Source: a virus. From it: DNA of 64,000 bases. The notes below the pieces were generated by a model that had not been told where the DNA came from, did no database searches, and saw nothing but the letters and a program-made list of their open reading frames with translations. Of this stretch, positions 1 through 64,000 are shown piece by piece. The stretch covers positions 1 to 64,000 of the IMG/VR virus record IMGVR_UViG_3300009103_000015. One strand, written 5' to 3'. Position numbers and translations under genes: made by a program. The stretch's first letter is position 1; every line of letters starts with the position of its first letter.

Positions 1-1143
1 GAATCATTAGCAAAAGAAGATATTCATTTTGGAATAAGCGATTACACTTCAGGTGGTAGTCCATCAGAACAACAAGATGCATTCAATAGTGCATTTGGTG
101 TAAGCACTCCAGAAGAAGAAGAACAGATAGAAGATTCCATTGATGATAAAATGAATCCAATCGAATCAGCATACTTTGATATTAAAAGTGAATATTGGGA
201 ATCGTTTATTGATGATCCAGTAAAGTTAGATGAATTTTTACAACGTGTTGAAAGTTTGAGAGCAGATGCAGAGCAAGCTGTCGCAACAATTCCAAGACGA
301 AGATCAGGTTTCTATACTCGCAGAAACTTTGACGAAGTGGAATGGCTTAACACTGTAATTAATGATATGCAAGGAATCATAAGACAAGCAGAACCAATGA
401 AGAATAACGGTTTATTTGAATCATTTCCAAGAGGTAATGTAGGCGAATCATTAGCAAGAGAAGATCAAATTCACACACAAGATGGTTGGTGGAGAAATGT
501 GCAAGATGTTGATTTTAACTTTGAATCATTACAGAAAGCAATAGCAGATATAGAATCTGCAATGAATGGTGCATCAACTTCAGAGATGATACAATTACAG
601 CAAGAATATGATTACTATAATGAACTTCTTGCAAAATTCACAGAAGATAAAAGTAATTTAGATAAATATGGTATTGTTAATCAAGACACACCAGAATATT
701 CAACTGCACCTTGGGGAATATACGAATCAAACGCAAAAGCAGTATGGAAATCTTATGAAATGGAAGATGAGTATGAAACTCAAATGCATGGACAAGGTTG
801 GAATACTGAAACAGATGAAGAAGAAGATGATCAATCTAAAGTATCACTGAACATAAATAGTGGAACTTTAACAGACAAACAAATAGAGACAGAAGAACAT
901 CATACTAAATCAGATAAAGATTCTACATCACCAGATGATGAAGGATTTTCAACTTCAAACATAGTATCAGGAAACTATGAAAAGGTAATTGGCTACAATC
1001 CTGATCCAAACCACAATCTAGGAGATCACAAATTGAAATCCAAGAAAGGAGAACGTCGTTCACAAGACAATCCAGCTAGCGAAACTCAAACATTTTATTC
1101 AAACATAATTGGTAAACTATCTGGCTTAGAAAGTGACGAATGA
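1..1143 (+). CDS. Acidic ES(K/L)AxE-motif protein 1, 5'-truncated (candidate internal head protein)
   Basis: Frame 1 is open from base 1 (ESLAKEDIHFG...) into the 151 ORF. D/E-rich; ESLAKE at 1, ESLARE at 445. Confidence 0.75.
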   Translation, partial: ESLAKEDIHFGISDYTSGGSPSEQQDAFNSAFGVSTPEEEEQIEDSIDDKMNPIESAYFDIKSEYWESFIDDPVKLDEFLQRVESLRADAEQAVATIPRRRSGFYTRRNFDEVEWLNTVINDMQGIIRQAEPMKNNGLFESFPRGNVGESLAREDQIHTQDGWWRNVQDVDFNFESLQKAIADIESAMNGASTSEMIQLQQEYDYYNELLAKFTEDKSNLDKYGIVNQDTPEYSTAPWGIYESNAKAVWKSYEMEDEYETQMHGQGWNTETDEEEDDQSKVSLNINSGTLTDKQIETEEHHTKSDKDSTSPDDEGFSTSNIVSGNYEKVIGYNPDPNHNLGDHKLKSKKGERRSQDNPASETQTFYSNIIGKLSGLESDE

Positions 1144-2720
1144 TGACCAGACAATGTCCAGAATGTTCAAGGGTTTTTGAAGACGAAGATACATTATTTG
1201 ACCACTTATTAGATACACATGGATATTCAATGGATCAAGCTGAAGATACTATTGATCTTTTGGATCTTTATGCCACACCTTCTGTAAATAAAGAATCAAA
1301 AGCAAAAGAAAGTATGGAAGATGAAGCTGGTCTTTGGTGGGATTCATTATCTATAAGCGATAGAGAAAATCTAATTGGTGGTGGTGCACAATCAGATTCT
1401 TGGCATTTAGATAAACATCTAAGTTGGAGTGAACTTCAAACAAGACCTAACTATGATCCAAGTCAACCTTTCTTTGATTCATCTACTACTGTTAATGATA
1501 TTCTCACAATCTATGTGTCAAGTTTCTATAAAGCACAAGGATTAGATGATGAACAATGGGATGAAACTGGTGGAGATTGGGATGGAAACATGAGACCAGA
1601 TTGGTCAGATACAGGTGGTCAATCAAATACTTGGTTTGGTTCAGTATTGAATCCTACATTAACTACAAGAAGTGGAAACATATTAAACTATGAATCAAAA
1701 GCAATAGAAGATGGATATTCAACAGCAAGAAGAATAATGAAACAACAAATTAGAGTTATGAGAGAAGACGGTGATACTGATGGTGCAGATGATCTTGAAT
1801 GGAAATTAGAAAATGGTTATTATGATGAATTTGGTGCAACTGGAACGCAGAATCCTGATCTTGCTGAATCCCATGCAATAGAAGTTTCATCAGAGGAAGA
1901 AGAAGTTGGTTCAGATCTATGGCAAGCTCTAGCAGAAGGAAATTTGTTAGGCGATTATGTTTTCGGTGGTATATTCAACTTTGAAATAACAATGCCTGAA
2001 TGGGCAACAGATCCACAGATAGATGTTGGTTCTATTGGTTGGTTTGAACTTTCAGATGCAGACAAACAAAATGTTGTTAATCATTTTGGTGGAGTAGATG
2101 GAATGAAAGAAAAACTATGTGATGAAGGTTGGAGTAGTTATTGTGAAGATGAAGATGGTTTTGAATCAAAAGCTAGAGAAGATAAATTAGACAAAGCACA
2201 ATTAGATATTGATGACGAAGAAGAATTTATGAATCAGGTAGATATAGCACAGAAATCAGATAATCAGAATCCATTGTTTGATATGGAAGCATTACAAAAG
2301 AAATATTCAATGTGTAATTCATGTATGGATAAAGCTTTCAAATCATTAACAAATGAATCACAAATGGCAGATGCAATGTATTCACAATGGCGTGGAACTG
2401 CAATAGGTGATGAAAGAAATTATGAGAATTGGGAAACTTTTGCATTAGCTAATGGTGTATCACAACAAGAAGCAATAGATACTTGGGAAAAATTGAATCC
2501 ATCATACGGATTTGAATCAAAAGCAATCGAAGAAATTGTTGATGATGATGGAATAAATGCAATTTGGAAATGTTCAATATGTGGAATATCTATAAGTATT
2601 CCTTCTGATTACATGGGAGATTCTGAAATACCAACACAACATCTAATGATTGATCATGGTATGACAAGAGATGAAGCTAATGATCTTGCAGAAAAAGAAA
2701 CAGATTATGGTGATTATTAA
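1140..2720 (+). CDS. Acidic modular protein 2 with N- and C-terminal C2H2-like fingers and five ESxAxE motifs
   Basis: CPEC..HLLDTH and CSIC..HLMIDH; ESKAKE, ESKAIE, ESHAIE, ESKARE, ESKAIE. Confidence 0.8.
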   Translation: MMTRQCPECSRVFEDEDTLFDHLLDTHGYSMDQAEDTIDLLDLYATPSVNKESKAKESMEDEAGLWWDSLSISDRENLIGGGAQSDSWHLDKHLSWSELQTRPNYDPSQPFFDSSTTVNDILTIYVSSFYKAQGLDDEQWDETGGDWDGNMRPDWSDTGGQSNTWFGSVLNPTLTTRSGNILNYESKAIEDGYSTARRIMKQQIRVMREDGDTDGADDLEWKLENGYYDEFGATGTQNPDLAESHAIEVSSEEEEVGSDLWQALAEGNLLGDYVFGGIFNFEITMPEWATDPQIDVGSIGWFELSDADKQNVVNHFGGVDGMKEKLCDEGWSSYCEDEDGFESKAREDKLDKAQLDIDDEEEFMNQVDIAQKSDNQNPLFDMEALQKKYSMCNSCMDKAFKSLTNESQMADAMYSQWRGTAIGDERNYENWETFALANGVSQQEAIDTWEKLNPSYGFESKAIEEIVDDDGINAIWKCSICGISISIPSDYMGDSEIPTQHLMIDHGMTRDEANDLAEKETDYGDY

Positions 2721-2722
2721 TC

Positions 2723-3955: not shown

Positions 3956-3957
3956 AA

Positions 3958-7829: not shown

Positions 7830-7862
7830 TATACTTTTAAAGTGTAATATAGAAGATTAGTT

Positions 7863-8630: not shown

Positions 8631-8670
8631 TCATCAATACATATTTTAGGTGTAAGACTGCGTTTAATGT

Positions 8671-9270
8671 ATGGTCAAAATACCAAAACCTGAAATGTTA
8701 GATCCAGAATCTCTTAAACCTTATGAACAGAATATCAAAGTTCATACTGAATCTCAAGTAGAAGGTATAATGAACAGCATGAAGAAATTTGGATTCTATG
8801 CTCCTATCGTAGTAGATGGAAAGAAGAATGTCATAATAGGACATGGAAGGTTAGAAGCTTCTAAGAGATTAGGTCTGAAAGAAGTTCCTGTTGTTAAACA
8901 GAAAAACATTTCAGAAGCAGATGCAAAGGCACTAAGAATTATTGATAATAGAATATCAGAAGTTGATTGGGATATTGATAACTTGAAATTAGAAATGGAT
9001 GATTTGAAAGAGTTTAACTTTGATGATTTCCATGTAGATTTAGAAGATCTATACACACCTAAATTACAAGACATTAACATTGACATAGATACTACTGACG
9101 AAAAGATGAAAGCATATCTTGAAGGTAGTGTTAAACAAATTACTTTGATATTCAGCAACGAAGAGTTTGAAAGAACAATATCACGAATGGAAAAGGCAGG
9201 TCAAGAATTAAAAGCTGAATCAAATACTGAAGTTCTGTTAAAACTACTAGATCATTACGAATCTCAATAG
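8671..9270 (+). CDS. ParB/Srx N-terminal domain protein
   Basis: LKPYEQN..H...SMKKFGF.APIVVD...IIGHGRLEA.K.LGLKEVPV...DNRISE. Confidence 0.85.
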   Translation: MVKIPKPEMLDPESLKPYEQNIKVHTESQVEGIMNSMKKFGFYAPIVVDGKKNVIIGHGRLEASKRLGLKEVPVVKQKNISEADAKALRIIDNRISEVDWDIDNLKLEMDDLKEFNFDDFHVDLEDLYTPKLQDINIDIDTTDEKMKAYLEGSVKQITLIFSNEEFERTISRMEKAGQELKAESNTEVLLKLLDHYESQ

Positions 9271-9303
9271 AATACTTAATAACATTATAAGACGATTAAA
9301 TTT

Positions 9304-10320
9304 ATGAAACTTAAAGAAATTCAACTGGAAAGAAATGAAATTACTAACTGGAAAGAATATGTAAAGCGACCAGCTAGAGATGATGACTATGAAACAATGT
9401 TAACAGAATCTTGCAAACTTATGGAAGGCGAAAAATTAATTGGTGTCTATATTGTATTACCTAAAACAAAAGAAACTGAATTATTGAGAGAAGTTGTGAG
9501 AAGAATAAATTATAATAGAAACAAAAGAACCTCTGGTTTGACTACAAATTCAAAGGTATTTGGATATCTTCCTAGAGAGATAATTAGAAAAGATTATTGT
9601 TCTTCTGCTGATTTAGCTACAACGAATGCAAAATATCATGCAGTTATTACACAGTTCGGAGAAACTCTAACTAAGAATTACAAAGAAAGTTGTCCAGAGA
9701 TGTTTGAATATCATAATGGAATAACAAAAGAAAAAATAAAAAAGGAATGGGTTATCAATAATACTCCATACACTTCAGGTATAATTAACAAAGATTCTCA
9801 ACTTAATTATCATTGGGATAGAGGAAACTACAAGAAAGTATTTTCAAACATGGTTGCTTTCAAAAACAAATGTGAAGGTGGACATTTAGCAATACCTGAA
9901 TACAATATTGGTTTAGAAATAGCAGATCTATCATTAACTTTCTTTGCTGGTCAAGAAGTTTTACATGGTGTCACTCCATTCAGAAATAATCAAGGTGGTT
10001 ATAGATACACTCTAGTTTATTACACAATGAATCAGATGTGGAAATGTGAAGATGTTTCAAAAGAAGTTGCTAGAATAAGAGAAAGAAAAACTCAACGTGA
10101 AAAGAACAGAGTGTTAAGATTACAGGGAAAGTTATCTGAAGAAGATGATCCAATAGGACAGCTTAGACAGAAAGTGAAAGATCCAAAACAATATATGAAT
10201 TATAATATATTTGCAGAATTAGGTATAGATAGAAAGTATCTAGGAGTTCCATTCACAAGGCTTCCAAAATACATACAAGAAAAATTAGTTCATTACAAAC
10301 AGAAGGAAAGAAAAGAATAA
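9304..10320 (+). CDS. TET/JBP-like 2-oxoglutarate/Fe(II) dioxygenase
   Basis: HxD (YHWDRGN), GG.L.IPEY, distal His (VLHGVTP) and 2OG-binding Arg (YRYTLVYY); adjacent to ParB as in viral TET/JBP loci. Confidence 0.8.
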   Translation: MKLKEIQLERNEITNWKEYVKRPARDDDYETMLTESCKLMEGEKLIGVYIVLPKTKETELLREVVRRINYNRNKRTSGLTTNSKVFGYLPREIIRKDYCSSADLATTNAKYHAVITQFGETLTKNYKESCPEMFEYHNGITKEKIKKEWVINNTPYTSGIINKDSQLNYHWDRGNYKKVFSNMVAFKNKCEGGHLAIPEYNIGLEIADLSLTFFAGQEVLHGVTPFRNNQGGYRYTLVYYTMNQMWKCEDVSKEVARIRERKTQREKNRVLRLQGKLSEEDDPIGQLRQKVKDPKQYMNYNIFAELGIDRKYLGVPFTRLPKYIQEKLVHYKQKERKE

Positions 10321-10460
10321 TGTTTACAGGTTTGGCAGACATTAATTCATTCTGGTCTATAATATCAATTTGTTTTTTCATTGGTGGTCTAACTATTGGT
10401 TGGGTTGCTAAAGATTGGAAGAAATCAGAAAAGCGTAGAGGTGATGGAAGATGGGATTAG
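10320..10460 (+). CDS. 46-aa single-TM membrane peptide (not in ORF track)
   Basis: MFTGLADINSFWSIISICFFIGGLTIGWVAKDWKK...; TAATG coupling to the upstream gene. Confidence 0.6.
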   Translation: MFTGLADINSFWSIISICFFIGGLTIGWVAKDWKKSEKRRGDGRWD

Positions 10461-10732
10461 GTAGAAAGTTCTTTTCAAATGTTTGGGGAAAACCTGAATG
10501 GAGTTTACCAACAGAAGATGAAGTCACTAAAAATATTATTAAACTTAGAAAGGATATAGAATCCATGCCCAACTCTCCTGAAAAAACAAAAGCAGTTTAC
10601 ACTTTAGCAAATCAAATGCAAATACTTAGATTAATTCTACATGAAAAGAAGAAGCAGAAATACAGACCTGATGCAAAAGGAAAATGGGTTTGGATAGATG
10701 AAGAAGAATATCAGGGAAGAAAATATGAGTGA
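10451..10732 (+). CDS. Hypothetical protein
   Basis: 93-aa ORF overlapping its neighbours. Confidence 0.6.
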   Translation: MGLGRKFFSNVWGKPEWSLPTEDEVTKNIIKLRKDIESMPNSPEKTKAVYTLANQMQILRLILHEKKKQKYRPDAKGKWVWIDEEEYQGRKYE

Positions 10733-10844
10733 CGTAGATGAATTTCATGAGAGGGCATGGGTTTGTAATCACCCAAACTTATTCTTCAAAGAGTTCAAAT
10801 TTTATTGCAGAGTTTGTGGAAAGGAAGTTCCGAATGGAAAATGA
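10725..10844 (+). CDS. 39-aa Zn-binding microprotein (not in ORF track)
   Basis: MSDVDEFHERAWVCNH...YCRVCGKEVPNGK. Confidence 0.55.
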   Translation: MSDVDEFHERAWVCNHPNLFFKEFKFYCRVCGKEVPNGK

Positions 10845-10935
10845 TGAAACAAAATACTGTATCGAGTGTGGACATTATTATAATGAAAATCATAACGGTG
10901 AAAGAATAATGTGCGAGTGTGAATGTCATGGTTGA
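10834..10935 (+). CDS. CxCxCH microprotein
   Basis: MENDETKYCIECGH...CECECHG; start re-assigned from 10738. Confidence 0.55.
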   Translation: MENDETKYCIECGHYYNENHNGERIMCECECHG

Positions 10936-11191
10936 AGCTCCAACGTGTGGAGTTTGCTTAGCAACAGCAGAAGGAGAACATCAATGGATTCCATCACATC
11001 TAAAGAATGATGATAGATTTACTTTTACCTGTAAATGTAAATGTCATAATGGTAAAGAAGAATTTCAAGAAGCACATAGAAGTAAAGCTTACAACATAAA
11101 ACATTGTATCTACTGTGGGAAGAAAGATTTTAAAGACTTTGATGAGGTATTAGATCATGTCAGAAGAGAATGTAAAAAAAGAAACGTGTGA
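10919..11191 (+). CDS. CxCxCH plus C2HC Zn-finger protein
   Basis: CGVC..H..CKCKCH and CIYC..HVRREC. Confidence 0.6.
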   Translation: MNVMVEAPTCGVCLATAEGEHQWIPSHLKNDDRFTFTCKCKCHNGKEEFQEAHRSKAYNIKHCIYCGKKDFKDFDEVLDHVRRECKKRNV

Positions 11192-11291
11192 GAGATGTGG
11201 TAATGAAATGGATAATCTAAGTGCCTGTCACTTGAGATGTTCAAACTGTGGTGTTGAATACGATTGTTCAGATAAGGGAACTACATGGTAA
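11157..11291 (+). CDS. 44-aa Nitrosopumilus-like CxxCG Zn-ribbon microprotein (not in ORF track)
   Basis: MSEENVKKETCERCGNEMDNLSACHLRCSNCGVEYDCSDKGTTW; recalled as resembling a thaumarchaeal small-protein family. Confidence 0.65.
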   Translation: MSEENVKKETCERCGNEMDNLSACHLRCSNCGVEYDCSDKGTTW

Positions 11292-11842
11292 AAATAATTG
11301 CTATCGGTGGAGTAGCTGGAACTGGAAAGACAAAGATAATTCAAGACTTTATCAAGAAATCAAAAGATTGGAAGGTATCAAAGCCTGAAAAGACATTGGA
11401 TTCTATTTACAGTGAAAAAATGAATTGTTTTGTTCTAGGAAAATATGATCCATTCTATGAAGGTGAAGGTTATGCACAGGGAACTGATAGATTAAGTATG
11501 TCAGTTCAACCACACGCTAAAAAATTCTTCAAGAATCTAAATTCAAACTGTATTTTTGAAGGAGATAGGTTATACAATCAAAAGATGTTAGAGTTTCTAC
11601 TAAATGAAACCAATCACGAATGTTTATTCCTAATTCTAGACTGTAAATCAGATATGCTAATTCAAAGATACAGAAAAAGAAATAGTGAACAGTCTGCTAA
11701 ATTCATTCAAGGTAGATTTACAAAGTATAACAACATAATACGCAACATGAAATCAAACATAACAATAGTAAAGAATGAAACAGAATCAGATTCCAAGAAG
11801 ATTTCTAAGATAATCAACAACTTTATATTGAATGTCAACTAA
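11285..11842 (+). CDS. P-loop nucleotide kinase of the viral DNA-hypermodification type (5-hmU DNA kinase-like)
   Basis: Walker A GGVAGTGKT; LGKY....GTDRLSMSVQP; IFEGDRL. Confidence 0.7.
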   Translation: MVKIIAIGGVAGTGKTKIIQDFIKKSKDWKVSKPEKTLDSIYSEKMNCFVLGKYDPFYEGEGYAQGTDRLSMSVQPHAKKFFKNLNSNCIFEGDRLYNQKMLEFLLNETNHECLFLILDCKSDMLIQRYRKRNSEQSAKFIQGRFTKYNNIIRNMKSNITIVKNETESDSKKISKIINNFILNVN

Positions 11843-14012: not shown

Positions 14013-14435
14013 ATGTTGCATCCTGAAAAGAAAGAAAAGAAAAAAGAAGTTGATGATAGAAGGGATATGGTAAATAAAATGTTGATAAAGGGAGCAACTC
14101 AATTAGAAATATCAAACCAACTAAAAATTTCCATTAGCACAGTTGAACGTGATGTTAAAGTAATAAAAGAAAATGCTAGTAAGTGGTTAGATGATTTAGC
14201 AAAGAAAGGTATTGTCCATGAATGGAAACAGGGATTAGAAAAGTTAAGAGAAACTGAAAGAAAACTAAATCAAATATTGCAAGAAAAGGAATTATCAAGA
14301 GATGATACACTTAGAATTTTAAAACAAAGAGATGAAAACATAGCATTACAAACTCAATTCTTAATGGATGGTCCAGCACTTCACGCCATAAAATCTCACA
14401 TGAATGATATAGGTGAAATTGATGACCACTTATAG
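14013..14435 (+). CDS. terS: Terminase small subunit (HTH)
   Basis: HTH ATQLEISNQLKISISTVERDV plus helical C-terminus; immediately upstream of TerL. Confidence 0.65.
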   Translation: MLHPEKKEKKKEVDDRRDMVNKMLIKGATQLEISNQLKISISTVERDVKVIKENASKWLDDLAKKGIVHEWKQGLEKLRETERKLNQILQEKELSRDDTLRILKQRDENIALQTQFLMDGPALHAIKSHMNDIGEIDDHL

Positions 14436-16206
14436 AAGTAAGATTCAAACCTTCGTTAAAACAAATACGAATTGGTTAGATGACGAAGAAGAACTTCCAG
14501 AATTACCAACTGATATTAAACAATGGATTAACGTAGCAAGACCTTTTGTTGAAGGTCAACAGATGAGAAGAAGTTTTCTAACGATTCCATTTTGGGAAGC
14601 AATCTATGAAGATAAGACACAAGACATAATGGTTGTCGCTGGAAGACAGGTTTACAAATCTACATTCGCAACAGATATTCTAGCAAATTATACTACCAGT
14701 AGAAACAATATTTCAGTTTGTTATGTAAGTTATGATGATGTTAACAGAAACGCTTTCAGTAATCAGAAATTAAGAGTTGGAACGTTTCTAACAAATCCTA
14801 TTCTACAAAGATTTCCACGTTCTGGAAAGAGTGCTGGAAACGTAGGAGAAGTTCCACTGAAAAATAATTCTACAATATATGTGACAACAGATCATTGGGG
14901 TTATAGACACGTAGAAGGAAAGTCACTTCAGGTTTGTATTCTAGACGAAGCACAATATCATGATATACAATTCTTACCTAAATTGCAAGAAGCTATGACT
15001 GCAACGAAAGGAAGATTATACATTCTAGGAATTGGTGGAGAAGCTGGTTCTCCATACGAAAGATTATGGAATGATACTGATCAAAGAGAATGGATTTACG
15101 AAGATGAGAATTGGAGAGATAAGTTGAAGTTTGATAAACATGGGTTAGTGATTGGAGATTATATGAAAGATATTTTGAAAGGTAAATGGAAATCAAATAA
15201 ACCTCACAATAAACTCTTTCATGGTTATCATATTCCACAATACATAGTTCCAACAATACCTTTGACAATAGATGATGCTGTTAAGAAATACAAACTACAT
15301 CCAAAGTTCTCGATAGAATGGAAGAAGAAACATAATCCAACTTCAATATTCAATTCTCATGTTCTTGGTGGATTCTTCCACGCTTTGAGAAGACCTGTCA
15401 CTAGGGAAATGGTAGAAGCTTGCATGGAATCTGATAAAGTATTGTTAACTCCAAGCCAGATAGCTCAAATCAAAGACAAACAACAAAACAAAGTTAAGAT
15501 TGCATTAGGAGTTGACTTTGGTAGCAGTCCTTCAAAAAGTGCAACAGTAATCTGTATTCTAATTCATTGGAGAGAAACTGATAGATATCAAATGGCATTT
15601 ATGGAAAAAAGACCAGCAGAAAATCAGATGGATCAAGCACAATACATAACAAAGTTGTTTGGTAAATGTAAATGTGATATAGGATTCGGAGACTTAGGAT
15701 ATGGAGCAATTCAAGTTAAAACAATTCAAGATGGTGGAGCAGATAGAACTTCTGGAGAAATATTTGAGGGAGTGACATCTCAAAGATTTGTAGGTTGTAG
15801 AACCGTTGGAGATGAAAGTAAACCTATGATGAGATATGATAAGAAAGTAGATGAACATGGAGAGGTCACAGGTATGATTAAACTAGACAAGACAACTATA
15901 ATCCAAGAGTTCATAGATTTGTTAGAAACTCAAGTTCCAGATAAGAAAGAACCTGAAAATGAAAAGCTAGCAAAAATGAAGTTAAGAATACCTAGTAAGA
16001 AGGATTGGGAAACAGATTGGTTGATTGATGAATTTTGTGAGATAACTCGTAGAGATCTAGATGAAATGGGAGATGTCGAGACAGGTGTTGATAAACGCAT
16101 GAAAGTCAGGAAACTCTTCAACCATCCTAGAGATTCTACAATGTCTGTGATTTATGCAATGAAAGCTCTAGAATTTACGAGTGAATGGCATTGGGTTTCA
16201 GCATAA
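14413..16206 (+). CDS. terL: Terminase large subunit
   Basis: Walker A AGRQVYKS, Walker B VCILDEAQ, RNase H-like ALGVDFG, GFGDLGYG, C-terminal HPRD. Confidence 0.85.
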   Translation: MKLMTTYRSKIQTFVKTNTNWLDDEEELPELPTDIKQWINVARPFVEGQQMRRSFLTIPFWEAIYEDKTQDIMVVAGRQVYKSTFATDILANYTTSRNNISVCYVSYDDVNRNAFSNQKLRVGTFLTNPILQRFPRSGKSAGNVGEVPLKNNSTIYVTTDHWGYRHVEGKSLQVCILDEAQYHDIQFLPKLQEAMTATKGRLYILGIGGEAGSPYERLWNDTDQREWIYEDENWRDKLKFDKHGLVIGDYMKDILKGKWKSNKPHNKLFHGYHIPQYIVPTIPLTIDDAVKKYKLHPKFSIEWKKKHNPTSIFNSHVLGGFFHALRRPVTREMVEACMESDKVLLTPSQIAQIKDKQQNKVKIALGVDFGSSPSKSATVICILIHWRETDRYQMAFMEKRPAENQMDQAQYITKLFGKCKCDIGFGDLGYGAIQVKTIQDGGADRTSGEIFEGVTSQRFVGCRTVGDESKPMMRYDKKVDEHGEVTGMIKLDKTTIIQEFIDLLETQVPDKKEPENEKLAKMKLRIPSKKDWETDWLIDEFCEITRRDLDEMGDVETGVDKRMKVRKLFNHPRDSTMSVIYAMKALEFTSEWHWVSA

Positions 16207-31100: not shown

Positions 31101-34100
31101 CAGAAACAATATGATACTAGAAAACTTGGTAAGTATATCTTCACAACAGTATTCCAAAGTGATGTATTCCAAGCACCATTCAAGAAAAAGAAATCAGTTG
31201 TTGATACAATAGGAATATCTGAATCATCTTCAAAGGTTAAAGGATTTGTTAAGAAGGTAGATGAATCTCTAGGAATTACAGAAACATTATCTAAGATTGT
31301 TAGAAAGACAATTACTAAATCAATATCAGAAACAGTTGGAATATCTGAAATAAAGAAGTTCGCTAAATCATTACAGGTCACAGTCACAGAGAATGTAGAA
31401 ATCATAGATCTAACCAGAAAGAAACTAGAGAGAGTAATCTTTACAATTCCACGTATCTTCCAAACGAATATTTTCGATCAAGATGTATTCCAAAAACTTT
31501 GGGATCCAACTGCTACTGCAATATCTAAAATATTCCAAAGTAATGTATTTGATACAGATGTTTTCCAACAAGCATTTAGCACTAACATTAAACCAAAGAT
31601 ATTCGACCAAGATATATTCCAAGTCAATGTATTCCAAACTAAATCACATGACATACTAAAGAAATCTAAATCAATATTCACAGGTGGAATATTCCAAGTT
31701 AATGTATTCCAAACTCCACAGAAACTAACAAAATCCGTATATGATAATGTAGGAATTGTAGAATCTGCAATAAAGAAAGTCATTCCACAAATTAGTAAAT
31801 CTATTTCAGAATCAGTAGGAGTTGTAGAATCATCATCTAAATCAGTAGGAAAGACAAAGACAGTTCCATTAGATAATGTAGGAATTACAGAAACAACAGG
31901 TTATGCAAAACTCTTAAAGAAATCTATATCGGACAGCGTATCAATATTAGATCTAACAAGAAAGAAATTAGAACAGGTCATATTCACTATTCCAAGAATA
32001 TTCCAAACCAATATATTCCAACAACCTACAAGCAGTTATCCAAAATACATATTCCAAAAGTTGTGGGATCCATCATCTACATCTATTGCTAAAGTATTTC
32101 AATCAGATGTATTCGATAACGATCTATTCCAACAGGCAAGTGACACGAATATCAAACCTAAAGTGTTCACAAGTATATTCCAGCACAACATATTCCAAAC
32201 CAAACAACAAGATTTGGCAAAGAAATCAAAGGTTGTATTCCAAGTTAAAGTATTCCACAGTAATGTATTCCAAAGTGCAATACAGGTTAAGAAAACAATC
32301 TATGATACTATTGGAGTTGTTGAATCAACAGTAAGAAAGATAATTCCACAGATAAGTAAATCGATATCAGAGAATCTTGGAATCGTTGAAAGTATCAGTA
32401 AGAGTATTGGTAAGACAAAGACCGTTCCAACTGATAGTGTAGGAATTACTGAATCAACTGGATTCGCTAAACTATTGAAGAAATCTGTAAGTGATACAGT
32501 TGGAATTATTGATCTAACTAGATACAACAAAGAACAAACAATATTCACAATTCCGAGAGTGTTCCAAACTAACATATTTGATAATGACGTGTTCCAACAA
32601 CTATGGGATCCATCAAGCACTTCGATTAGTAAAGTATTCCAGTCTAACATATTTGATACCGACGTATTCCAGCAAGGATTCTTCACTAATATCAAGTCAA
32701 AGGTATTCCAAAACATATTCCAACACAATGTCTTCCAAACAAAGATATTTGATATTAAGAAGAAAGCAACAAAGATATTCCAAGTCAAAGTATTCGACTT
32801 CAAAGTATTCCAATCTCCAATCGGAATATTCAAGGCAATATACGATACAGTTAATGTCGCAGAATCTACTGTTAAGAAGATTATTCCTCAAATCAGTAAA
32901 TCAATTAATGAGAATGTAGGAATATCTGAATCAGAGAATAAATCAATAGGAATTACTAAGACTGCTCCAACTGATTCTGTATCAATATCTGAAACAACAC
33001 AGTTTGCTAAGAAATTAACAAAGACTATTACTGAATCTGCAATCACAATCTATGATTTCACAAAACATTTCAAGAAACAAACCATCTTCACGATACCAAA
33101 GGTTTTCCAATCAAATGTATTCGATACAGACGTATTCCAAACTCTATACAATCCACTTGCAACTGCATTTAGTAAAGTATTCCAATCCAATGTGTTTGAC
33201 CAAGATGTATTCCAGAAGGCATACGATAGTGTCATAAGACCAGCAGTATTCACTTCGGTATTCCAGTCTAAAGTATTCCAGAAGGCAGTTGATACGAGAA
33301 AGATTAGAACAAAACCATTCCAGTATAAAGTATTCCAATACAATGTATTCCAAGCACCTCAACTACTCAAGGAATCAATCTATGAAACTGTTAATGTTAA
33401 CGAATCAATCGCAACAAGAAAAGAGAATGTAGTAAGAGCTCAAAAGACAGATACAGTTGGAATAACAGAATCCGTCAGCACAGTAAAAGGAATTGCAAAA
33501 GATACAACAGAAAGTGTTGGAATAGTTGAAACTGTTTACAAATCAATCGGTGTAGTAAAATCTGTCACTGAACCTGTAAGTGTTGTAGAAGTCTTAACCA
33601 AATTCGATTGGAGAAAGATTACATTTATCTATAAAGTGTTCCAAGACTTCTTCCAAGAAAATGTATTCCAACAACAGTATAACATATTCCCATTCAGTGG
33701 AAGAAGAACTGCAAAGATAAAGAAACTATTCCAATCCAACGTCTTTGACAATGATGTATTCCAATCTAAAGTATTCGATCTAGATATAATTCCAAGAGTA
33801 TTCAATCAATGGGTATTCCAACAACCTAGTGATGAATATCCATATCCTGTATTCCAGAGATTATACAAACTATCAGAACATGAGGAAACAAGGACAAAGA
33901 TATTCCAACAGAACATATTCCAGTCCAATCTATTCTCTGTAAGACTACCATTACACATAGAGTATAAACAAGAATATGGAACTGATCCACCAATCGCAAT
34001 CAATGAATCTATAAGTATTGTTCTCGGTAAGAACCAAAGAATCAATGAGAATATTGGAATCAGTGAATCAATATCATTCAATACTGCACAGAACCAAACC

Positions 34101-53946: not shown

Positions 53947-54344
53947 GTGAAACAGAAAAAAACTACGATCCAGCAAAAAAAGCTAAGTTTTCTGAATTGA
54001 AGACGGAATGGGCAAAACTAAAGAAAGAAAGTAGTGCTAGTGATTCTGAACGTGCAACAGCAAAACAAAGAATCAATGCAATACAAAGGGAACTTGATTT
54101 AGAAGTCACCGATTTCAATGCTCCAAAGAAAACGAATAATGCTTCAAATTCATCAGGATCTCCACAGAGATCTAACGAAGCAAGATTCACAGAAGTAAAA
54201 GCTTTCCATGATACAGCAGGGAAATTAGCCAATGATATATTGGATAGTTTCTATGCAAACAATGGATTGACACCTGAACCAAAAGAAAGACTAATCGCTT
54301 GGGAAGGACTTTTGAAAAGCTTTGCAATCGTGTGGAGTAGATGA
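53943..54344 (+). CDS. Hypothetical protein upstream of radA
   Basis: 133 aa, two helical domains joined by an S/N linker. Confidence 0.6.
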   Translation: MSETEKNYDPAKKAKFSELKTEWAKLKKESSASDSERATAKQRINAIQRELDLEVTDFNAPKKTNNASNSSGSPQRSNEARFTEVKAFHDTAGKLANDILDSFYANNGLTPEPKERLIAWEGLLKSFAIVWSR

Positions 54345-54381
54345 ACCACACTATCCTTCCCTTTTTTATGGAGATGTTAAA

Positions 54382-55674
54382 ATGGTAAAAGAAACAAAAA
54401 AGAAAGAAACAAAAAAGAAAGCAACGGTTAAATCAAAGAAAGAAGATAAAGAACCAATGACGGAAAATACAGAAGTAGAAACAACTGAAACCGAACTCAC
54501 TGAAACTGAAGTAGAATCAGAAGATGAGGTTAAGAAAAAACTACTTAGAGAAATGCTGACAACGAAAGAAACAAAAGATCCTGAAGAAGTTGACGAAATT
54601 AAAAAACAGGAACTTGAAATCGAAGAATTTGACATAGCAAAACTAGATGGAGTTGGAACTGTTCGTAAGAATAGATTGAACGAAGCTGGTATTCATACTG
54701 CTATGGATATTGTCACTGCTGGTCCAATGCCTTTGGCAGAACTAACTGGAATGGAAGTTGCTATGACAGAAAAGATGGTTAGAAAAGCAAGAGAATTTTT
54801 AGAAGCGAGTGGTGCTATTAGAAATTCATTCATGAAGGCAAGTGAACTCAAAGAATACAGAGACACAAAAATAAATTCTAAAAGATTGAAAACAGGTTCA
54901 TCAGCACTTGACAATTTGTTAGGTGGTGGAATAGAACCACAAGCTGTCACAGAGTTCTATGGAGTTTATGGTTGTGGAAAAACACAGATTTGTCATAGTC
55001 TTGCTGTAAGATGTCAATTACCTGAAGATCAAGGTGGTTTGAATGGAGAAGTTGTATGGATAGATACAGAAAACACGTTTAGACCAGAACGTATCGCAGA
55101 CATTGTTTGTGAGAACGAATTGATACCTATCAAAAAACGCAAGAAAGGTGAAAAAGCTATTCCAGAAAATCAAATGGATTTAGTAAAGTTTTTGGACAGA
55201 ATAACTGTCGCAAGAGCTTCTAGTGCATCTCATCAGGAATTAGTTTTAGAACAGATGGCACAACAACTCAAACTGGAATCTGAAGATAAGAAAGATGGAG
55301 ATCCAAGAATTGTTCTTGTGATTGTTGATTCATTAACAACTCACTTTAGATCAGAATATCTAGGTCGTGGACAACTTGCTCCAAGACAAGCAGAGTTAGG
55401 AAAGTTTCTACATAAAGTATCACGAATAGCAGAAGTGTATAACATTGCTGTTGTTGTGACAAATCAAGTATTATCTAATCCAGATCCCTTTGGAAATCCA
55501 ATTCGACCTGTCGGTGGAAACATCGTAGCTCATACTTCAACGTATAGAATTTGGTTAAGAAAAGGAACTAAAGGTAAAAGAGTAGCAAAGATGGATGATA
55601 GTCCAATGCACGCCCAAAACGAAGCAGTCTTTGAATCAGATGTTCGTGGAGTTGTGGATTCAGATGGAACTTGA
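54382..55674 (+). CDS. radA: Archaeal RadA recombinase
   Basis: HhH LDGVG; LDNLLGGGIE; Walker A GVYGCGKTQ; IDTENTFRPERI; IVDSLTTHFRSEY.GRG.L..RQ; VTNQV; GGNIVAH; start re-assigned from 54322. Confidence 0.95.
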   Translation: MVKETKKKETKKKATVKSKKEDKEPMTENTEVETTETELTETEVESEDEVKKKLLREMLTTKETKDPEEVDEIKKQELEIEEFDIAKLDGVGTVRKNRLNEAGIHTAMDIVTAGPMPLAELTGMEVAMTEKMVRKAREFLEASGAIRNSFMKASELKEYRDTKINSKRLKTGSSALDNLLGGGIEPQAVTEFYGVYGCGKTQICHSLAVRCQLPEDQGGLNGEVVWIDTENTFRPERIADIVCENELIPIKKRKKGEKAIPENQMDLVKFLDRITVARASSASHQELVLEQMAQQLKLESEDKKDGDPRIVLVIVDSLTTHFRSEYLGRGQLAPRQAELGKFLHKVSRIAEVYNIAVVVTNQVLSNPDPFGNPIRPVGGNIVAHTSTYRIWLRKGTKGKRVAKMDDSPMHAQNEAVFESDVRGVVDSDGT

Positions 55675-57158: not shown

Positions 57159-58128
57159 TTCCTCAACTCTCGATTCTTTTTTTACAGAAGAAGAACAGAA
57201 AGAACAAAAGAAACAAGAGAAATTAAAAAGTATTGAAAAACAAATAGATTATCATAAGTCATTAGAAGAAGTATCTGATGTTCTCGATAATGATAAAAAT
57301 CCTCATTCTAAAATTATAGAAGAAAGAAAAGAAGCCTTTAAGGAATTAAAGAAAACAGATGAACAGAAAAAACTACCTGAAGAAAGATTGCATTATGATG
57401 AAGATACTAAAGAATGGAAAGAGATTATTCCAGTAGAAGAACAACCTAGTGAAACCAATCTCTTTGTAAATAATAATGGAACTCATATAGCAAAACAAGA
57501 ACTATTGAATTTGAAATGGGGATCAACTCATGTCTATAAAGTTGGAAGTAATTATTATGGATGGGGAGATATGATTCATAATGATGAAGATAACATAAAA
57601 CATAATCTAATTAGAATGAGAGAACTTGCAATTAAGAATAAATTTAGTGGATTATACAAAGCATACGATTCAGATATGGGAGAACATGAACCAACAATAT
57701 CAAATGATCTTAAAAAATTATTGAATGATCCACTTAGACAATTCAAAAATAAAGAAGATAAAAGATTGTTTTCAATAATATTAGAAGCAAACAAAGTGTA
57801 TGAAGAACAGGTTTATCAGATATTTGAAGATCATGTAGAATTATGTGATGAGAATATATTACAAAGTATAGAAAAATGTGAAGAATCTTTTCCAAAAGAT
57901 GATGATCAAGAAGATGAAAAACTATACGAAGATCAAGGTTGTGTAGTAATTGAAAGAGAAGAAGGTGAAAGAGTGACAGATTCAACTTCAGTAGATGAAA
58001 ACGGAAATGAGAGTAAAGTAGTAGAAGTAGATGTTGTAGATTACAAAGATGGTAAATTATTAGATAGAGTTATCGCTAAAAAACAACCAAAGATTCAAGA
58101 CTTCGATGCAGATTACTTTAATGAATGA
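57151..58128 (+). CDS. Hypothetical acidic protein
   Basis: 325-aa ORF. Confidence 0.65.
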   Translation: MSDSSTLDSFFTEEEQKEQKKQEKLKSIEKQIDYHKSLEEVSDVLDNDKNPHSKIIEERKEAFKELKKTDEQKKLPEERLHYDEDTKEWKEIIPVEEQPSETNLFVNNNGTHIAKQELLNLKWGSTHVYKVGSNYYGWGDMIHNDEDNIKHNLIRMRELAIKNKFSGLYKAYDSDMGEHEPTISNDLKKLLNDPLRQFKNKEDKRLFSIILEANKVYEEQVYQIFEDHVELCDENILQSIEKCEESFPKDDDQEDEKLYEDQGCVVIEREEGERVTDSTSVDENGNESKVVEVDVVDYKDGKLLDRVIAKKQPKIQDFDADYFNE

Positions 58129-58544
58129 TGGCAGGGAAGAAATCTTGGATGCACAGAAATTGTGATGCTAATCAATTTAGACCTGAACAATATTATTGCT
58201 ACAAATTACTGTTTGAACTAATGCCACCTAATTTTGAAATAACAATGGAATATCCAGTAAAAGATCTGAAAGATGTAGATGGAATACTTAGTAAAAATGC
58301 TCTATTAGATATCGCTGTAATTTCTAAAGAACATAAAGTTGCATTTCGTCTTAATGGAGAAGTTCATGAAAAGAAAAGACAGGCAATAAAAGATCAAGAT
58401 CAAAGAATAATCTTGGAAGGTAATGGTTGGAAAGTTTATGATTTGAATAAATATGATATTCCTGAATTGTGGGATAGGAAAGCATATACTAAAGAACAGG
58501 CAAAAGATGCTCTATTAAGAGAGATAAGAAATGCCAAAGTGTAA
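58125..58544 (+). CDS. Vsr/DUF559-like endonuclease
   Basis: EYPV...LDIAV....VAFRLNGEVH......D......LEGNGWKV. Confidence 0.7.
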   Translation: MMAGKKSWMHRNCDANQFRPEQYYCYKLLFELMPPNFEITMEYPVKDLKDVDGILSKNALLDIAVISKEHKVAFRLNGEVHEKKRQAIKDQDQRIILEGNGWKVYDLNKYDIPELWDRKAYTKEQAKDALLREIRNAKV

Positions 58545-60171: not shown

Positions 60172-60255
60172 TGGGTCAATGTCAATGTGGTCAATATGTC
60201 ATGTATTCAAAGATGTGTAGAAGATGTTATAAAAAACAAAGAAAGGAGAAAGATA

Positions 60256-61138: not shown

Positions 61139-61139
61139 G

Positions 61140-61315
61140 TTTTATTTACTTAATTTTTACCATTTTTTCTTAAGTAATAGTTTGACAATTTAGGAATTTA
61201 TTAATTTACTAATTACTTAATTTATTACTTAAGAAATTAAGTATTACTTAATCGGTTGAATTTACGGAGGGATTTACGGAGTGGTCTTATATCTTACGAC
61301 CACGTAGTAGTTTTT
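61140..61315. promoter_or_regulatory. AT-rich iterated control region (origin or early promoter candidate)
   Basis: TTACTTAA x4 plus inverted copies; tandem ATTTACGGAG x2; GTGGTC/GACCAC flanking a TATA-like box. Confidence 0.5.
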
Positions 61316-62647: not shown

Positions 62648-62659
62648 ACAATTAGAAAT

Positions 62660-63967
62660 ATGAAAGCAAAAACAAAAACAAAACAATCCACTCAATCAGG
62701 TGGAAGTAGTGGAGAAGTAATGCCTGAAAAGAAAGTGACAATAGTAAAAGAAGCCGAAAATAAAAAAGAAGTGATGGGCGATTATTTGAAAACCATCGCT
62801 GATACTATCTTCGGTGGTAAAGAACTTGATGGAAATGTAAAACGTTCTTGTCAAGCAATTTACCAACAAGAGTTGAAGAACGGTAGAAGAAAGAATCCTG
62901 TCGTTAGTAAAGATGGAAAGATATTAGATCCTTCCAAATTCAAAAGACTAGTGACACGATATACTAAGTTATTGAATACTGTTGACAAGACAGATCACCC
63001 AGCAGAAGTTTCAGTAGGTTCTTCTAATGGAAGTTCTTCTAATGGAAGTTTAATGTCAGTTCAAGTTCCAGTTGATCATACTAAGTATATTGAATTAAAC
63101 ATTCCACACTACGTTGAAGTTCATAGTGAGTTTAAAGTATTTGATGCTCACATGAAAAGTGGTATTCCACTTTTAATTCAAGGACCGAAAGGTATTGGTA
63201 AGACACTTGGCTTAGCAAAATACGCTGAAAAGAAAAGATGTCCTATCATAGAATATGATTGCTCTGAAGGAACTAAGAAGTATGATCTTCAAGGAACTAA
63301 GACTGGAGTTGCTGGTGGAGTGACTCCATTCGAGTTAGGATTCATTCCAAGAATCATAGAATGTGCTAATCAATTTGGTATGGCTATTCTTGTTCTCGAA
63401 GAACTTAACGCATTAACTCCAGCGATGCAAAAACTTCTAAACCCATTACTCGATTGGAGAAAAGGAATGTATATTCCAGAGATTGGAAAACGTTTCAAAC
63501 TTAATGATGGAGTTAAACTTGGTATATTTGCAACAACCAATCCAGCATCTTATCAGGCTTCCAATGATCTTAACGAAGATCTTCAATCAAGATTCAGTAT
63601 TTGGAAATGGAATTATCCTAACGTAAGACAAGAAAGAAAAGCAATTCAATGGCGTGGAGTTGATACTAGTATTCAGAAAGGTATCATGCTACTTGCAAAG
63701 AACACCAGAGACTTCGTAGAACAACAGAAGTTATCATACGCATTATCAACTAGAGATATTCAGAAGTTCATTGATGCCTATGTTTCTTACGAAGAAGATT
63801 CCGTAGAAATACTTAGGTTATGTTTAGACATGAATGTTATTTCCTTCTACGACGAAGTCGGTGAGATATCAACAGTGAAAAGTAGAATTGAATCTGCATT
63901 TGGTTCTAACATCTTTACTGCTAAAGGCGACGAAGCATTGGAAAATGCTTCAGATGAGGAATTATAG
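62660..63967 (+). CDS. MoxR/CbbQ/CobS-like AAA+ ATPase
   Basis: Walker A GPKGIGKT, Walker B ILVLEELN, IFATTNP, LNEDLQSRF, LSTRDI. Confidence 0.85.
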   Translation: MKAKTKTKQSTQSGGSSGEVMPEKKVTIVKEAENKKEVMGDYLKTIADTIFGGKELDGNVKRSCQAIYQQELKNGRRKNPVVSKDGKILDPSKFKRLVTRYTKLLNTVDKTDHPAEVSVGSSNGSSSNGSLMSVQVPVDHTKYIELNIPHYVEVHSEFKVFDAHMKSGIPLLIQGPKGIGKTLGLAKYAEKKRCPIIEYDCSEGTKKYDLQGTKTGVAGGVTPFELGFIPRIIECANQFGMAILVLEELNALTPAMQKLLNPLLDWRKGMYIPEIGKRFKLNDGVKLGIFATTNPASYQASNDLNEDLQSRFSIWKWNYPNVRQERKAIQWRGVDTSIQKGIMLLAKNTRDFVEQQKLSYALSTRDIQKFIDAYVSYEEDSVEILRLCLDMNVISFYDEVGEISTVKSRIESAFGSNIFTAKGDEALENASDEEL

Positions 63968-64000
63968 AAATGTCATACTTCACTGATTCAAACAACAACT

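What the first reader, a model, noticed from the sequence alone, without database searches (positions are those of the whole stretch)
1..64000. GTWAC and GTAC appear absent, visible as context-dependent codon choice
Seen: Val is normally GTA/GTT, but every Val-Thr I checked uses GTC or GTG (e.g. caggtcacagtcacagag ~31373, gtgaca 14881, gtcaca ~23668). Gly-Thr is typically GGA-ACN, Trp-Tyr is TGG-TAT, Gly-Tyr is GGT-TAT or GGA-TAY, and Gly-Asn is GGT-AAT or GGA-AAC. I saw no GTAC, GTAAC or GTTAC, while GTSAC, GTTAAC and GTTTAC occur. Inference: two more host restriction or methylation targets, escaped here synonymously. GTWAC, as opposed to GTNAC, is an unusual specificity.
Basis: seen in the sequence. 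Interest (0 to 1): 0.7.

Follow-up and report, generated by a model that had tools for sequence, protein, structure and literature searches.

The report
Archaeal virus purged of GTAC, GTWAC
A complete 78-kb virus of marine ammonia-oxidising archaea has removed every GTAC and every GTAAC/GTTAC from its DNA by silent codon changes, the classic mark of escape from DNA-cutting (restriction) enzymes, and the second word points to a cutting specificity for which no enzyme has been described.

Summary
GTAC occurs 0 times and GTWAC 0 times in the window and in the whole 77,757-bp circular genome. Synonymous-codon shuffles expect 142 and 93. GTSAC is doubled (80 against 40), and all 61 Val-Thr pairs use GTC or GTG (Fisher P about 1e-49). 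Every one-letter neighbour of either word is at normal frequency.

The two words are separate targets. The closest relative (L076, TerL 93% identical) has no GTWAC but 11 GTAC. The next relatives (TerL 82%) have normal counts of both. Other relatives lack GTAC only, or lack GTSAC only.

About 75 sampled genomes of the cellular order Nitrososphaerales keep both words, so this is not lineage composition. The virus has no detectable DNA methyltransferase and no recognisable restriction-modification gene.

GTAC and GTWAC belong to a set of more than 20 purged words. The best reading is site elimination under host type II restriction enzymes. GTWAC cannot be told apart from an asymmetric GTAAC site. 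It is known only as an unassigned methylated motif in marine metagenomes. No host enzyme was identified.

The phenomenon is classical, and this scan has seen it before in giant viruses. The new elements are the archaeal virus group, the extent of purging and the inferred specificity.

The parts
1..64000 (.). Whole window (and the remaining 13.8 kb of the genome): no GTAC and no GTAAC/GTTAC on either strand, in coding or non-coding DNA.
31374..31391 (+).
14881..14886 (+).
15397..15401 (+). GTCAC at a conserved Pro-Val-Thr-Arg. Relative L245 has GTTAC at the homologous place. Similar switches occur at 9970, 15865 and 21969 (GTW-AC in L245, GTC-AC here) and at 15772 (GTA-AC in L245, GTG-AC here).
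14413..16206 (+). Large terminase gene. It was used to find relatives and to link the virus to Nitrosopumilaceae.
54322..55674 (+). Archaeal RadA/Rad51 recombinase gene (Pfam Rad51, E 1e-72). Supports an archaeal host.
58125..58544 (+). 139-aa protein that resembles DUF559/Vsr-like and PvuRts1I-N nuclease clusters. Together with a Cas4-like nuclease outside the window, it is the only nuclease-like candidate for the rival 'virus-encoded cutter' reading.
   Evidence: no PADLOC or PDB match.

Best explanation
The virus is a complete, probably lytic, head-tailed virus of marine ammonia-oxidising archaea (Nitrosopumilaceae). It carries no detectable DNA methyltransferase of its own. Its host population most likely carries at least two separate restriction enzymes, one cutting unmethylated GTAC and one cutting GTWAC (or the asymmetric word GTAAC).

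A virus that moves between host strains with different enzyme sets arrives unprotected, so each site is a liability. Point substitutions that remove a site are therefore favoured until none is left. The genetic code allows every GTAC and GTWAC to be removed silently. The observed switches are GTA/GTT to GTC/GTG before Thr, GGT to GGA before Thr, TAC to TAT, and AAC to AAT. This is why GTSAC has doubled.

Shown: the total absence, the codon-context rules, the sharp five-letter specificity, the independence of the two words, the recent origin of GTWAC loss in one small clade, the normal counts in cellular relatives, and the lack of detectable viral methyltransferases.

Inferred: that restriction enzymes are the agent, that they are host-encoded, that they are of the orthodox type II kind, and that the host is a Nitrosopumilaceae archaeon.
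For: - Depletion is total against 142 and 93 expected under protein-preserving shuffles, with P about 1e-49 for the Val-Thr codon switch.
- Only the exact words are missing. All one-letter neighbours are at 0.82-1.40 of expectation and GTSAC is at 2.0.
- The profile is a lineage-specific mosaic on the TerL tree. GTWAC is lost only in G000 and L076. GTAC is lost (0-1 sites) in G000, L244, L082 and L117, and L111 is scored at or below 0.1 of expectation on the tree. GTSAC is lost in L118, L244, L142, L129 and L120. AGCT is lost in L077 and in L090, L092, L093 and L106.
- Homologous Val-Thr sites switch from GTW to GTS.
- GTAC and GTWAC belong to a set of more than 20 purged words, most of which are recognition sites of known type II enzymes: GGCC, CCGG, GCGC, CGCG, CCWGG, GCWGC, CTCAG, GAGTC, CTRYAG, CAATTG, GAATTC, GTMKAC, CATATG, TTCGAA, ACATGT, CAGCTG.
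- About 75 Nitrososphaerales cell genomes sampled at up to 20 kb each keep both words.
- One genome, G051, shows partial depletion of exactly GTAC (0.29) and GTWAC (0.57) but not GTSAC (0.92). The depletion varies among the four species of its genus.
- No methyltransferase of PF01555, PF00145, PF02086 or PF02384 is present in a genome rated 100% complete, and the 10 ORFs scanned gave no PADLOC hit.
- Host link: TerL homologues at about 51-52% identity are recorded from Ca. Nitrosopumilus koreensis AR1 and Nitrosarchaeum MAGs and occur in 13 of 401 Nitrososphaerales genomes.
- Literature: predicted MTases for GCWGC, GGCC, CCWGG and GTAC exist in ammonia oxidisers, while AGCT and GATC methylation is common in the ammonia-oxidiser genomes examined so far (PMC11033074; PMC8919816). 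The virus purges the first four and tolerates the last two.
- Complete elimination is typical of orthodox type II sites in non-temperate dsDNA viruses (PMC6286503).
Against: - No enzyme that cuts GTWAC is known, and none was found here.
- The host species is not identified.
- The one cellular genome with a matching partial signature (G051) has 43% G+C against the virus's 33%. It is probably not the host, and its depletion is modest.
- About half of the viral ORFs have no family match, so a virus-encoded nuclease cannot be excluded.
- The virus carries a TET/JBP dioxygenase and P-loop kinases, which could mean modified DNA. That does not sit easily with such heavy reliance on site loss.
Confidence: 0.8

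Rival explanations
1. The GTWAC signal comes from an enzyme that reads the asymmetric word GTAAC (type IIS, IIG or III), not a W-centred quasi-palindrome. This is a variant of the best explanation, not an alternative to restriction.
For: GTAAC and GTTAC are reverse complements, so counts cannot separate the two readings. The virus also purges clearly asymmetric words: CTCAG 0 of 66, GAGTC 3 of 53, GACGC 0.
Against: Several purged five-letter words here are W-centred sites of classical homodimeric enzymes (CCWGG, GCWGC). Relatives purge the S-centred complement GTSAC. Elimination was not seen for type IIG sites and only rarely for type III sites in a survey of phages (PMC6286503). Both orientations are absent, unlike the one-orientation escape from type III enzymes.
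Confidence: 0.25
2. The virus encodes its own solitary nuclease(s) that cut GTAC and/or GTWAC, for example to degrade host DNA. It protects itself by having no sites, as reported for some giant viruses in this scan.
For: A 139-aa ORF (58125-58544) resembles DUF559/Vsr-like and PvuRts1I-N nuclease clusters (atlas score 0.96; weak Pfam PF18741 hit at E 0.009). A Cas4-like PD-(D/E)XK nuclease lies at genome 74453-75223. Many ORFs have no family match.
Against: More than 20 words are purged, far more than a 78-kb genome could plausibly cover with its own cutters. The 10 ORFs scanned gave no PADLOC match and the 2 queried gave no PDB sequence match. Small DUF559 and Cas4-like nucleases are usually repair or recombination enzymes (general knowledge). 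L076 keeps 11 GTAC sites. No relative carrying the 139-aa gene could be fetched to test co-occurrence.
Confidence: 0.07
3. The words are avoided for a reason unrelated to cutting: a regulatory signal, a mutational bias, or a side effect of DNA base modification.
For: The genome does show partial, signal-like depletion of other words: TATA 0.58, TTTAAA 15 of 53, A5/T5 0.46, GGAGG 9 of 65. A TET/JBP dioxygenase is present.
Against: The depletion is absolute, strand-symmetric and present in coding and non-coding DNA. One-letter neighbours are normal. Sister viruses at 82% TerL identity and cellular genomes have normal counts. Regulatory avoidance here is only partial, about two- to four-fold.
Confidence: 0.04
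4. One enzyme with a flexible spacer reads both GTAC and GTWAC.
For: The words share the half-sites GT and AC. GTMKAC is also absent (0 of about 27).
Against: L076 has 0 GTWAC but 11 GTAC. L082, L117 and L244 have 0-1 GTAC and normal GTWAC.
Confidence: 0.03

Closest known systems
Restriction-site avoidance in bacteriophages and archaeal viruses (survey: Rusinov et al. 2018, PMC6286503)
   Same: Complete elimination of short type II recognition words from a dsDNA virus genome. The virus has no detectable methyltransferase. The profile differs between related viruses.
   Different: The host group is ammonia-oxidising archaea; the papers searched and read here did not report avoidance for their viruses. 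The breadth is unusual: more than 20 words, with Ala-Ala and Pro-Gly missing from the proteome. One purged word has no known enzyme.
Tsp45I (GTSAC) and MaeIII (GTNAC) restriction specificities (recalled from REBASE, not checked here)
   Same: Same outer letters GT..AC and a five-letter quasi-palindrome. Other viruses of the same group purge GTSAC (L118 0 of 15, L142 1 of 13, L244 0 of 7).
   Different: Here the centre must be A or T. GTSAC is tolerated and doubled, so the agent is neither of these specificities.
GTAC systems: RsaI, Csp6I and CviQI (from memory); archaeal MjaV, MhuII and PabI; predicted GTAC MTases of Nitrososphaera viennensis (PMC11033074)
   Same: GTAC is a common archaeal R-M target, and the review lists a predicted GTAC MTase in Nitrososphaera viennensis, in the same phylum as the likely host.
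   Different: No such gene was tied to the host of this virus.
Methylated GTWAC motif in marine metaepigenomes (Hiraoka et al. 2022, PMC8919816)
   Same: The same five-letter word, from marine microbial communities, reported as matching no known MTase motif in REBASE.
   Different: That is a methylation signal in an unnamed MAG. The lineage is not given in the text held, and no supplement is held. Here the signal is avoidance in a virus, and a link between the two is not shown.

Membership tests
Restriction-site avoidance by a prokaryotic virus | The word is far below expectation (ratio under 0.1) under models that keep composition and coding. | tested here: met
   0 of 142 (GTAC) and 0 of 93 (GTWAC) under synonymous shuffles. 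0 of 110 and 0 of 76 under dinucleotide shuffles.
Restriction-site avoidance by a prokaryotic virus | Only the exact word is depleted, not its near neighbours. | tested here: met
   All one-substitution neighbours lie at 0.82-1.40 of expectation; GTSAC is at 2.0.
Restriction-site avoidance by a prokaryotic virus | The profile differs between related viruses and is absent from the cellular lineage. | tested here: met
   TerL tree and counts. About 75 Nitrososphaerales genomes sampled.
Restriction-site avoidance by a prokaryotic virus | The host encodes an enzyme that cuts the word. | not testable with these tools
   The host species is unknown and the specificity of R-M genes cannot be read from sequence. 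Leads only: a predicted GTAC MTase in Nitrososphaera, partial GTAC and GTWAC depletion in G051, and an MTase next to an unannotated 319-aa ORF in G051.
Restriction-site avoidance by a prokaryotic virus | The virus lacks a protecting methyltransferase for the word. | tested here: met
   No match to PF01555, PF00145, PF02086 or PF02384 in six frames of the complete genome. Divergent MTases cannot be excluded.
MaeIII-type (GTNAC) or Tsp45I-type (GTSAC) target | GTSAC should be depleted. | tested here: not met
   GTSAC is 80 observed against 40 expected in coding DNA, and 92 in the genome.
Type III restriction escape | Sites survive but in one orientation only. | tested here: not met
   GTAAC and GTTAC are both 0 on the + strand.
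Virus-encoded solitary restriction enzyme with self-avoidance | A sequence-specific nuclease gene is present in the virus and its presence tracks the missing word among relatives. | tested here: inconclusive
   Only a DUF559-like 139-aa ORF and a Cas4-like nuclease were found. No PADLOC match. Relatives carrying the gene could not be fetched.

The most novel reading that the evidence does not exclude
A restriction enzyme specific for GTWAC (or GTAAC) circulates in marine ammonia-oxidising archaea. No enzyme with this specificity has been characterised; it would be the A/T-centred complement of Tsp45I. The list of more than 20 words purged from this virus would then be a readable catalogue of the restriction repertoire of an uncultured host population. 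The repertoire would turn over fast enough that viruses with 82% identical terminases carry different lists.
Probability: 0.7. Interest if true: 0.5.

Novelty: new member of a known kind. Interest (0 to 1): 0.45.

Why it matters
Ammonia-oxidising archaea are among the most abundant cells in the ocean, yet they are hard to culture and mostly lack CRISPR (general knowledge). Little is known about how they resist viruses. This virus group records the restriction pressure it has met as missing words in its DNA.

Reading those lists across relatives gives a culture-free view of which enzymes circulate and how fast they turn over. It also predicts a new specificity (GTWAC) that can be looked for in methylomes and, if found, used as a reagent.

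The phenomenon itself is textbook biology for bacteriophages, so the value is in the host group, the extent of purging and the predicted enzyme. It is not a new principle.

Tried and rejected
- Composition or lineage bias: rejected. Sister viruses and about 75 cellular genomes of the order have normal counts.
- A single enzyme for GTAC and GTWAC: rejected by their independent distribution among relatives.
- The conserved minus-strand ORF at 11915-12802 (91% aa identity to L076, 92% nt) as a clade-specific nuclease: rejected. It has an N-terminal hydrophobic segment and an HExxHxxGxxH metalloprotease motif.
- Megablast of 12 kb against GenBank phages: no match. A protein search there found only distant Bacillus-phage terminases at about 22% identity.
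I replaced it with 20-kb samples.
- The order of G002 turned out to be the wrong one: 36 genomes, no TerL.
- Scans of viral contigs with the portal, RadA, CobS-like and DUF559-like proteins found no further close relatives.
- One notes look-up failed.
- No supplement is held for PMC8919816, so the lineage with methylated GTWAC is unknown.
- Locus L221 (G294, unpublished) was fetched but left out of all counts.
Full report
**What the sequence is.** The window is the first 64 kb of a 77,876-base record with a 119-base terminal overlap, which gives a 77,757-bp circular assembly. The record is listed as a virus with direct terminal repeats and 100% completeness. It has 33% G+C, and 89 of 93 ORFs lie on one strand.

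It encodes the following:
- a large terminase;
- an archaeal RadA/Rad51 recombinase (Pfam E 1e-72);
- a ParB-N domain protein, a TET/JBP dioxygenase and P-loop kinases;
- a matrixin-like protease;
- an AAA_5 plus VWA pair;
- a 3326-aa ORF.

**Host link.** The terminase has 478 homologues at E <= 1e-10, and the 120 best listed are 49-100% identical. They include proteins recorded from Ca. Nitrosopumilus koreensis AR1 (51%) and from Nitrosarchaeum MAGs (51-52%). The terminase profile hits 13 of 401 genomes of one cellular order. One of these (G429) has a contig of 1,639,964 bases, the same length as the longest contig recorded for the N. koreensis AR1 protein cluster. The N. koreensis element has been described as a terminase-bearing integrated element (PMC6563490). 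The virus is therefore a head-tailed virus of ammonia-oxidising archaea, most likely marine Nitrosopumilaceae. The host species is not known.

**The observation.** GTAC, GTAAC and GTTAC each occur 0 times in the window and in the whole genome.

| Model | GTAC expected | GTWAC expected |
|---|---|---|
| Dinucleotide-preserving shuffles (window) | 109.5 +/- 10 | 75.6 +/- 8.8 |
| Synonymous shuffles keeping proteins and codon usage (genome, 300 runs) | 141.7 +/- 9.7 | 93.1 +/- 6.9 |

GTSAC is observed 80 times against 39.9 expected (z = +7.8).

- All 61 Val-Thr pairs use GTC or GTG, although these make up only 18% of Val codons (Fisher P about 1e-49).
- GTA is never followed by a C-initial codon (0 of 529).
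- NGT codons are never followed by Thr (0 of 1363).
- TAC never follows a codon ending in G.
- TAC and AAC never follow a codon ending in GT.

All single-substitution neighbours of GTAAC and GTAC are at 0.82-1.40 of expectation. The missing words are therefore exactly GTAC and GT[A/T]AC. Longer GT..AC words show mixed results. GTTAAC (15 of 13.5) and GTAAAC/GTTTAC (31 of 27) are normal. GTATAC, GTAGAC/GTCTAC and GTCGAC are absent, which fits GTMKAC as a separate target.

The third (~23668) is off by about 60 bases.

**Context in the same genome.** GTAC and GTWAC are two of many purged words. Counts below are observed against expected under synonymous shuffles.

| Word | Observed | Expected |
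|---|---|---|
| CTCAG/CTGAG | 0 | 66 |
| GAGTC/GACTC | 3 | 53 |
| GGCC | 0 | 9.8 |
| CCGG | 0 | 12.4 |
| GCGC | 0 | 8.8 |
| CGCG | 0 | 3.9 |
| CCWGG | 0 | 11 |
| GCWGC | 0 | 3.9 |
| CTACAG/CTGTAG | 0 | 37 |
| CTATAG | 0 | 25 |
| CAATTG | 0 | 36 |
| GAATTC | 0 | 34 |
| CATATG | 1 | 20 |
| TTCGAA | 1 | 20 |
| ACATGT | 0 | 13 |
| CAGCTG | 0 | 9.7 |
| GTATCC/GGATAC | 2 | 23 |
| GAGGC/GCCTC | 1 | 22 |
| GAGCC/GGCTC | 0 | 16 |

GACGC and GCGTC are also 0, against 10.7 and 2.6 expected. For the G+C-only words the synonymous-shuffle expectations are small because the codon usage itself has been shaped. Base composition alone expects 46 of each.

Tolerated words include CATG (197 of 196), CTAG (201 of 204), TGCA, ACGT, GGWCC and GTTAAC. 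GATC (245 of 292) and AGCT (146 of 216) are only mildly reduced.

**Are the two words one target or two?** The closest relative is L076 (IMGVR_UViG_3300032006_000102, the same sequence as metagenome scaffold Ga0310344_10000978). Its terminase is 92.6% identical and its DNA about 85% identical over 16 kb. It has GTWAC 0 of 26 expected but GTAC 11 of 38.

On a terminase tree, the sister pair L243/L245 (80-82% identical) has normal counts of both words: L245 has GTAC 32 of 33 and GTWAC 30 of 23. The next branch, L244 (77%), has GTAC 0 of 10 and GTSAC 0 of 7 but GTWAC 6 of 7.

Among some 50 further relatives of 9 kb or more:
- none is depleted in GTWAC;
- GTAC is gone in L082 (0 of 36) and L117 (1 of 20), and is at or below 0.1 of expectation in L111 on the tree;
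- GTAC is two- to four-fold low in the L090-L095/L104-L106 clade;
- GTSAC is gone or nearly gone in L118 (0 of 15, with GTWAC raised to 37 of 16), L142, L129 and L120;
- AGCT is gone in L077 and in L090, L092, L093 and L106.

The two words thus behave as independent characters, and GTWAC loss arose on the short branch leading to G000 and L076.

Three GTAC sites of L076 can be aligned with both G000 and L245. At all three, neither of the others has GTAC. This hints that L076 is regaining sites rather than retaining old ones, but three sites are too few to be sure.

**How the sites were removed.** Where L245 has GTWAC or GTAC in alignable coding sequence, the homologous G000 sequence differs mostly by silent changes. 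Four conserved Val-Thr pairs read GTT/GTA-AC in L245 and GTC-AC in G000 (positions 9970, 15397, 15865, 21969), and a fifth (15772) reads GTA-AC in L245 and GTG-AC in G000. Gly-Gly-Tyr changes from GGT-TAC to GGT-TAT, and Ser-Thr from AGT-AC to TCT-AC.

There is a small cost at the protein level. Cys-Thr dipeptides are 3 against 18 expected and Val-Thr is at 0.71.

**Is it composition?** I sampled up to 20 kb from about 75 genomes of the cellular order that carries the terminase homologues. None lacks either word. A+T-rich members, including the genome matching N. koreensis AR1 (120 kb sampled), have GTAC and GTWAC at or above expectation.

One genome, G051 (43% G+C), is depleted over 220 kb in GTAC (0.27-0.29) and GTWAC (0.54-0.57) but not in GTSAC (0.92 by maximal-order Markov). 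Among the four species of its genus, GTWAC ranges from 0.57 to 0.93 and GTAC from 0.29 to 0.56.

This is the kind of partial, species-specific under-representation that carriers of type II systems show. It is a lead that GTWAC-specific pressure exists in cells of this order, not proof. G051 has three beta-class N4/N6 methyltransferases. One of them sits next to an unannotated 319-aa ORF.

**Does the virus protect or cut by itself?** Six-frame searches of the whole genome with the four main DNA methyltransferase families found nothing, while the controls responded. PADLOC found nothing in ten unannotated ORFs.

Two nuclease-like genes were found. One is a Cas4-like PD-(D/E)XK protein at genome 74453-75223. 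The other is a 139-aa ORF at 58125-58544. It has a weak Pfam hit to an REase-like domain (E 0.009, below threshold). In the protein atlas it resembles viral DUF559/Vsr-like and PvuRts1I-N clusters (score 0.96). It has only seven homologues in 5.8 billion proteins and none in the loci held, so co-occurrence with the missing words could not be tested.

A conserved minus-strand ORF shared with L076 is a metzincin-like protease, not a nuclease.

**Literature.**
- A survey of prokaryotic viruses found that complete elimination is mainly a feature of orthodox type II sites in non-temperate dsDNA phages. It was not seen for type I and IIG sites and was rare for type III (PMC6286503).
- A review table of archaeal systems lists methyltransferases for AGCT and GATC in ammonia oxidisers, and predicted ones for GCWGC, GGCC, CCWGG and GGWCC. 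For GTAC it lists predicted ones in Nitrososphaera viennensis (PMC11033074).
- AGCT was methylated in both marine thaumarchaeal MAGs, and GATC in nearly all archaeal MAGs, of a metaepigenome study (PMC8919816).

The virus purges GCWGC, GGCC, CCWGG and GTAC and tolerates AGCT and GATC. This fits the idea that only enzymes present in some host strains select for site loss. Where a methyltransferase is present in every host, progeny DNA always leaves the cell already methylated. This last step is my inference.

[quoted passage not shown] The lineage is not given in the text held. Searches for GTAAC or GTTAC together with REBASE found nothing relevant. A 2025 survey of ammonia-oxidiser viruses does not mention restriction.

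**Conclusion.** GTAC and GTWAC are two independent targets that have been removed almost entirely by synonymous substitution. The most likely cause is restriction enzymes of the host population.

GTWAC cannot be distinguished from the asymmetric word GTAAC. Several lines make a W-centred orthodox type II enzyme the more likely form:
- W-centred words (CCWGG, GCWGC) are purged in the same genome.
- Relatives purge the complementary word GTSAC.
- Complete elimination is typical of orthodox type II sites.

The principle is well known, and this scan has reported the same kind of purging in giant viruses. What is new here is the virus group, the number of purged words and the inferred specificity.

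Noticed in passing
window 1-64000 and the rest of the genome: More than 20 further words are absent or nearly absent: GGCC, CCGG, GCGC, CGCG, CCNGG, GCNGC, CTCAG, GAGTC, GACGC, GAGGC, GAGCC, CTRYAG, CAATTG, GAATTC, GTMKAC, CATATG, TTCGAA, ACATGT, CAGCTG, GTATCC, TACGTA. Three of the purged sets share GT..AC half-sites with spacers of 0, 1 (W) and 2 (MK) letters.
   Followed up: partly
all ORFs of the genome: The dipeptides Ala-Ala (0 against 53 expected) and Pro-Gly (0 against 44) are missing from the whole proteome. This is as expected if GCNGC and CCNGG cannot be tolerated. Cys-Thr is 3 against 18. It confirms two other notes on this genome.
   Followed up: partly
coding regions, genome-wide: Partial, not total, depletion of TATA (0.58), TTTAAA (15 of 53), TATATA (7 of 39), A5/T5 (0.46), A6/T6 (0.37) and GGAGG/CCTCC (9 of 65). 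This may be avoidance of spurious archaeal promoters, oligo-T terminators and Shine-Dalgarno-like words.
   Followed up: no
window 8671-11842: A ParB-N domain protein, a TET/JBP dioxygenase (Pfam E 9e-11) and a P-loop kinase lie close together, with a second AAA_33 kinase at genome 72446-73021. This is a possible DNA base-modification module in a genome that nevertheless relies heavily on site loss.
   Followed up: partly
window 11915-12802 (- strand): One of only four minus-strand ORFs. It is 91% identical in protein (92% in DNA) to its L076 counterpart, above the local average of about 85%. It has an N-terminal hydrophobic segment and an HEYAHALGVGH metzincin motif, with no Pfam or PADLOC hit. 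It is a second metalloprotease besides the matrixin at 21780-22658.
   Followed up: partly
window 58125-58544: A 139-aa DUF559/Vsr-like or PvuRts1I-N-like nuclease candidate with only seven homologues in the large protein database.
   Followed up: partly
window 62660-63967 and genome 63970-65946: An AAA_5 ATPase followed by a VWA-domain protein with a weak CobT_C hit. This is a CobS/CobT-like pair of the kind I recall being reported for marine thaumarchaeal 'marthaviruses' (from memory, not checked).
   Followed up: no
L118 (IMGVR_UViG_3300032524_000327): The mirror image of this genome: GTSAC 0 of 15, with GTWAC raised to 37 of 16 and CCWGG and CTRYAG also raised.
   Followed up: no
L001 (CAZQBE010000041.1, labelled Flavobacteriaceae MAG): It carries the closest RadA (48% identity), has 33% G+C and has no GGCC, CCGG, GCGC, CGCG or CCWGG in 3.2 kb. 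It is probably a related archaeal virus contig binned into a bacterial MAG.
   Followed up: no
G051 and its genus (L180, L248-L257, L279-L298): The cellular genomes of this genus are two- to three-fold low in many four-letter palindromes (GTAC, GGCC, CATG, CTAG). G051 and G076 are also low in GTWAC. Several A+T-rich genomes of the order are low in GTSAC by the dinucleotide model.
   Followed up: partly
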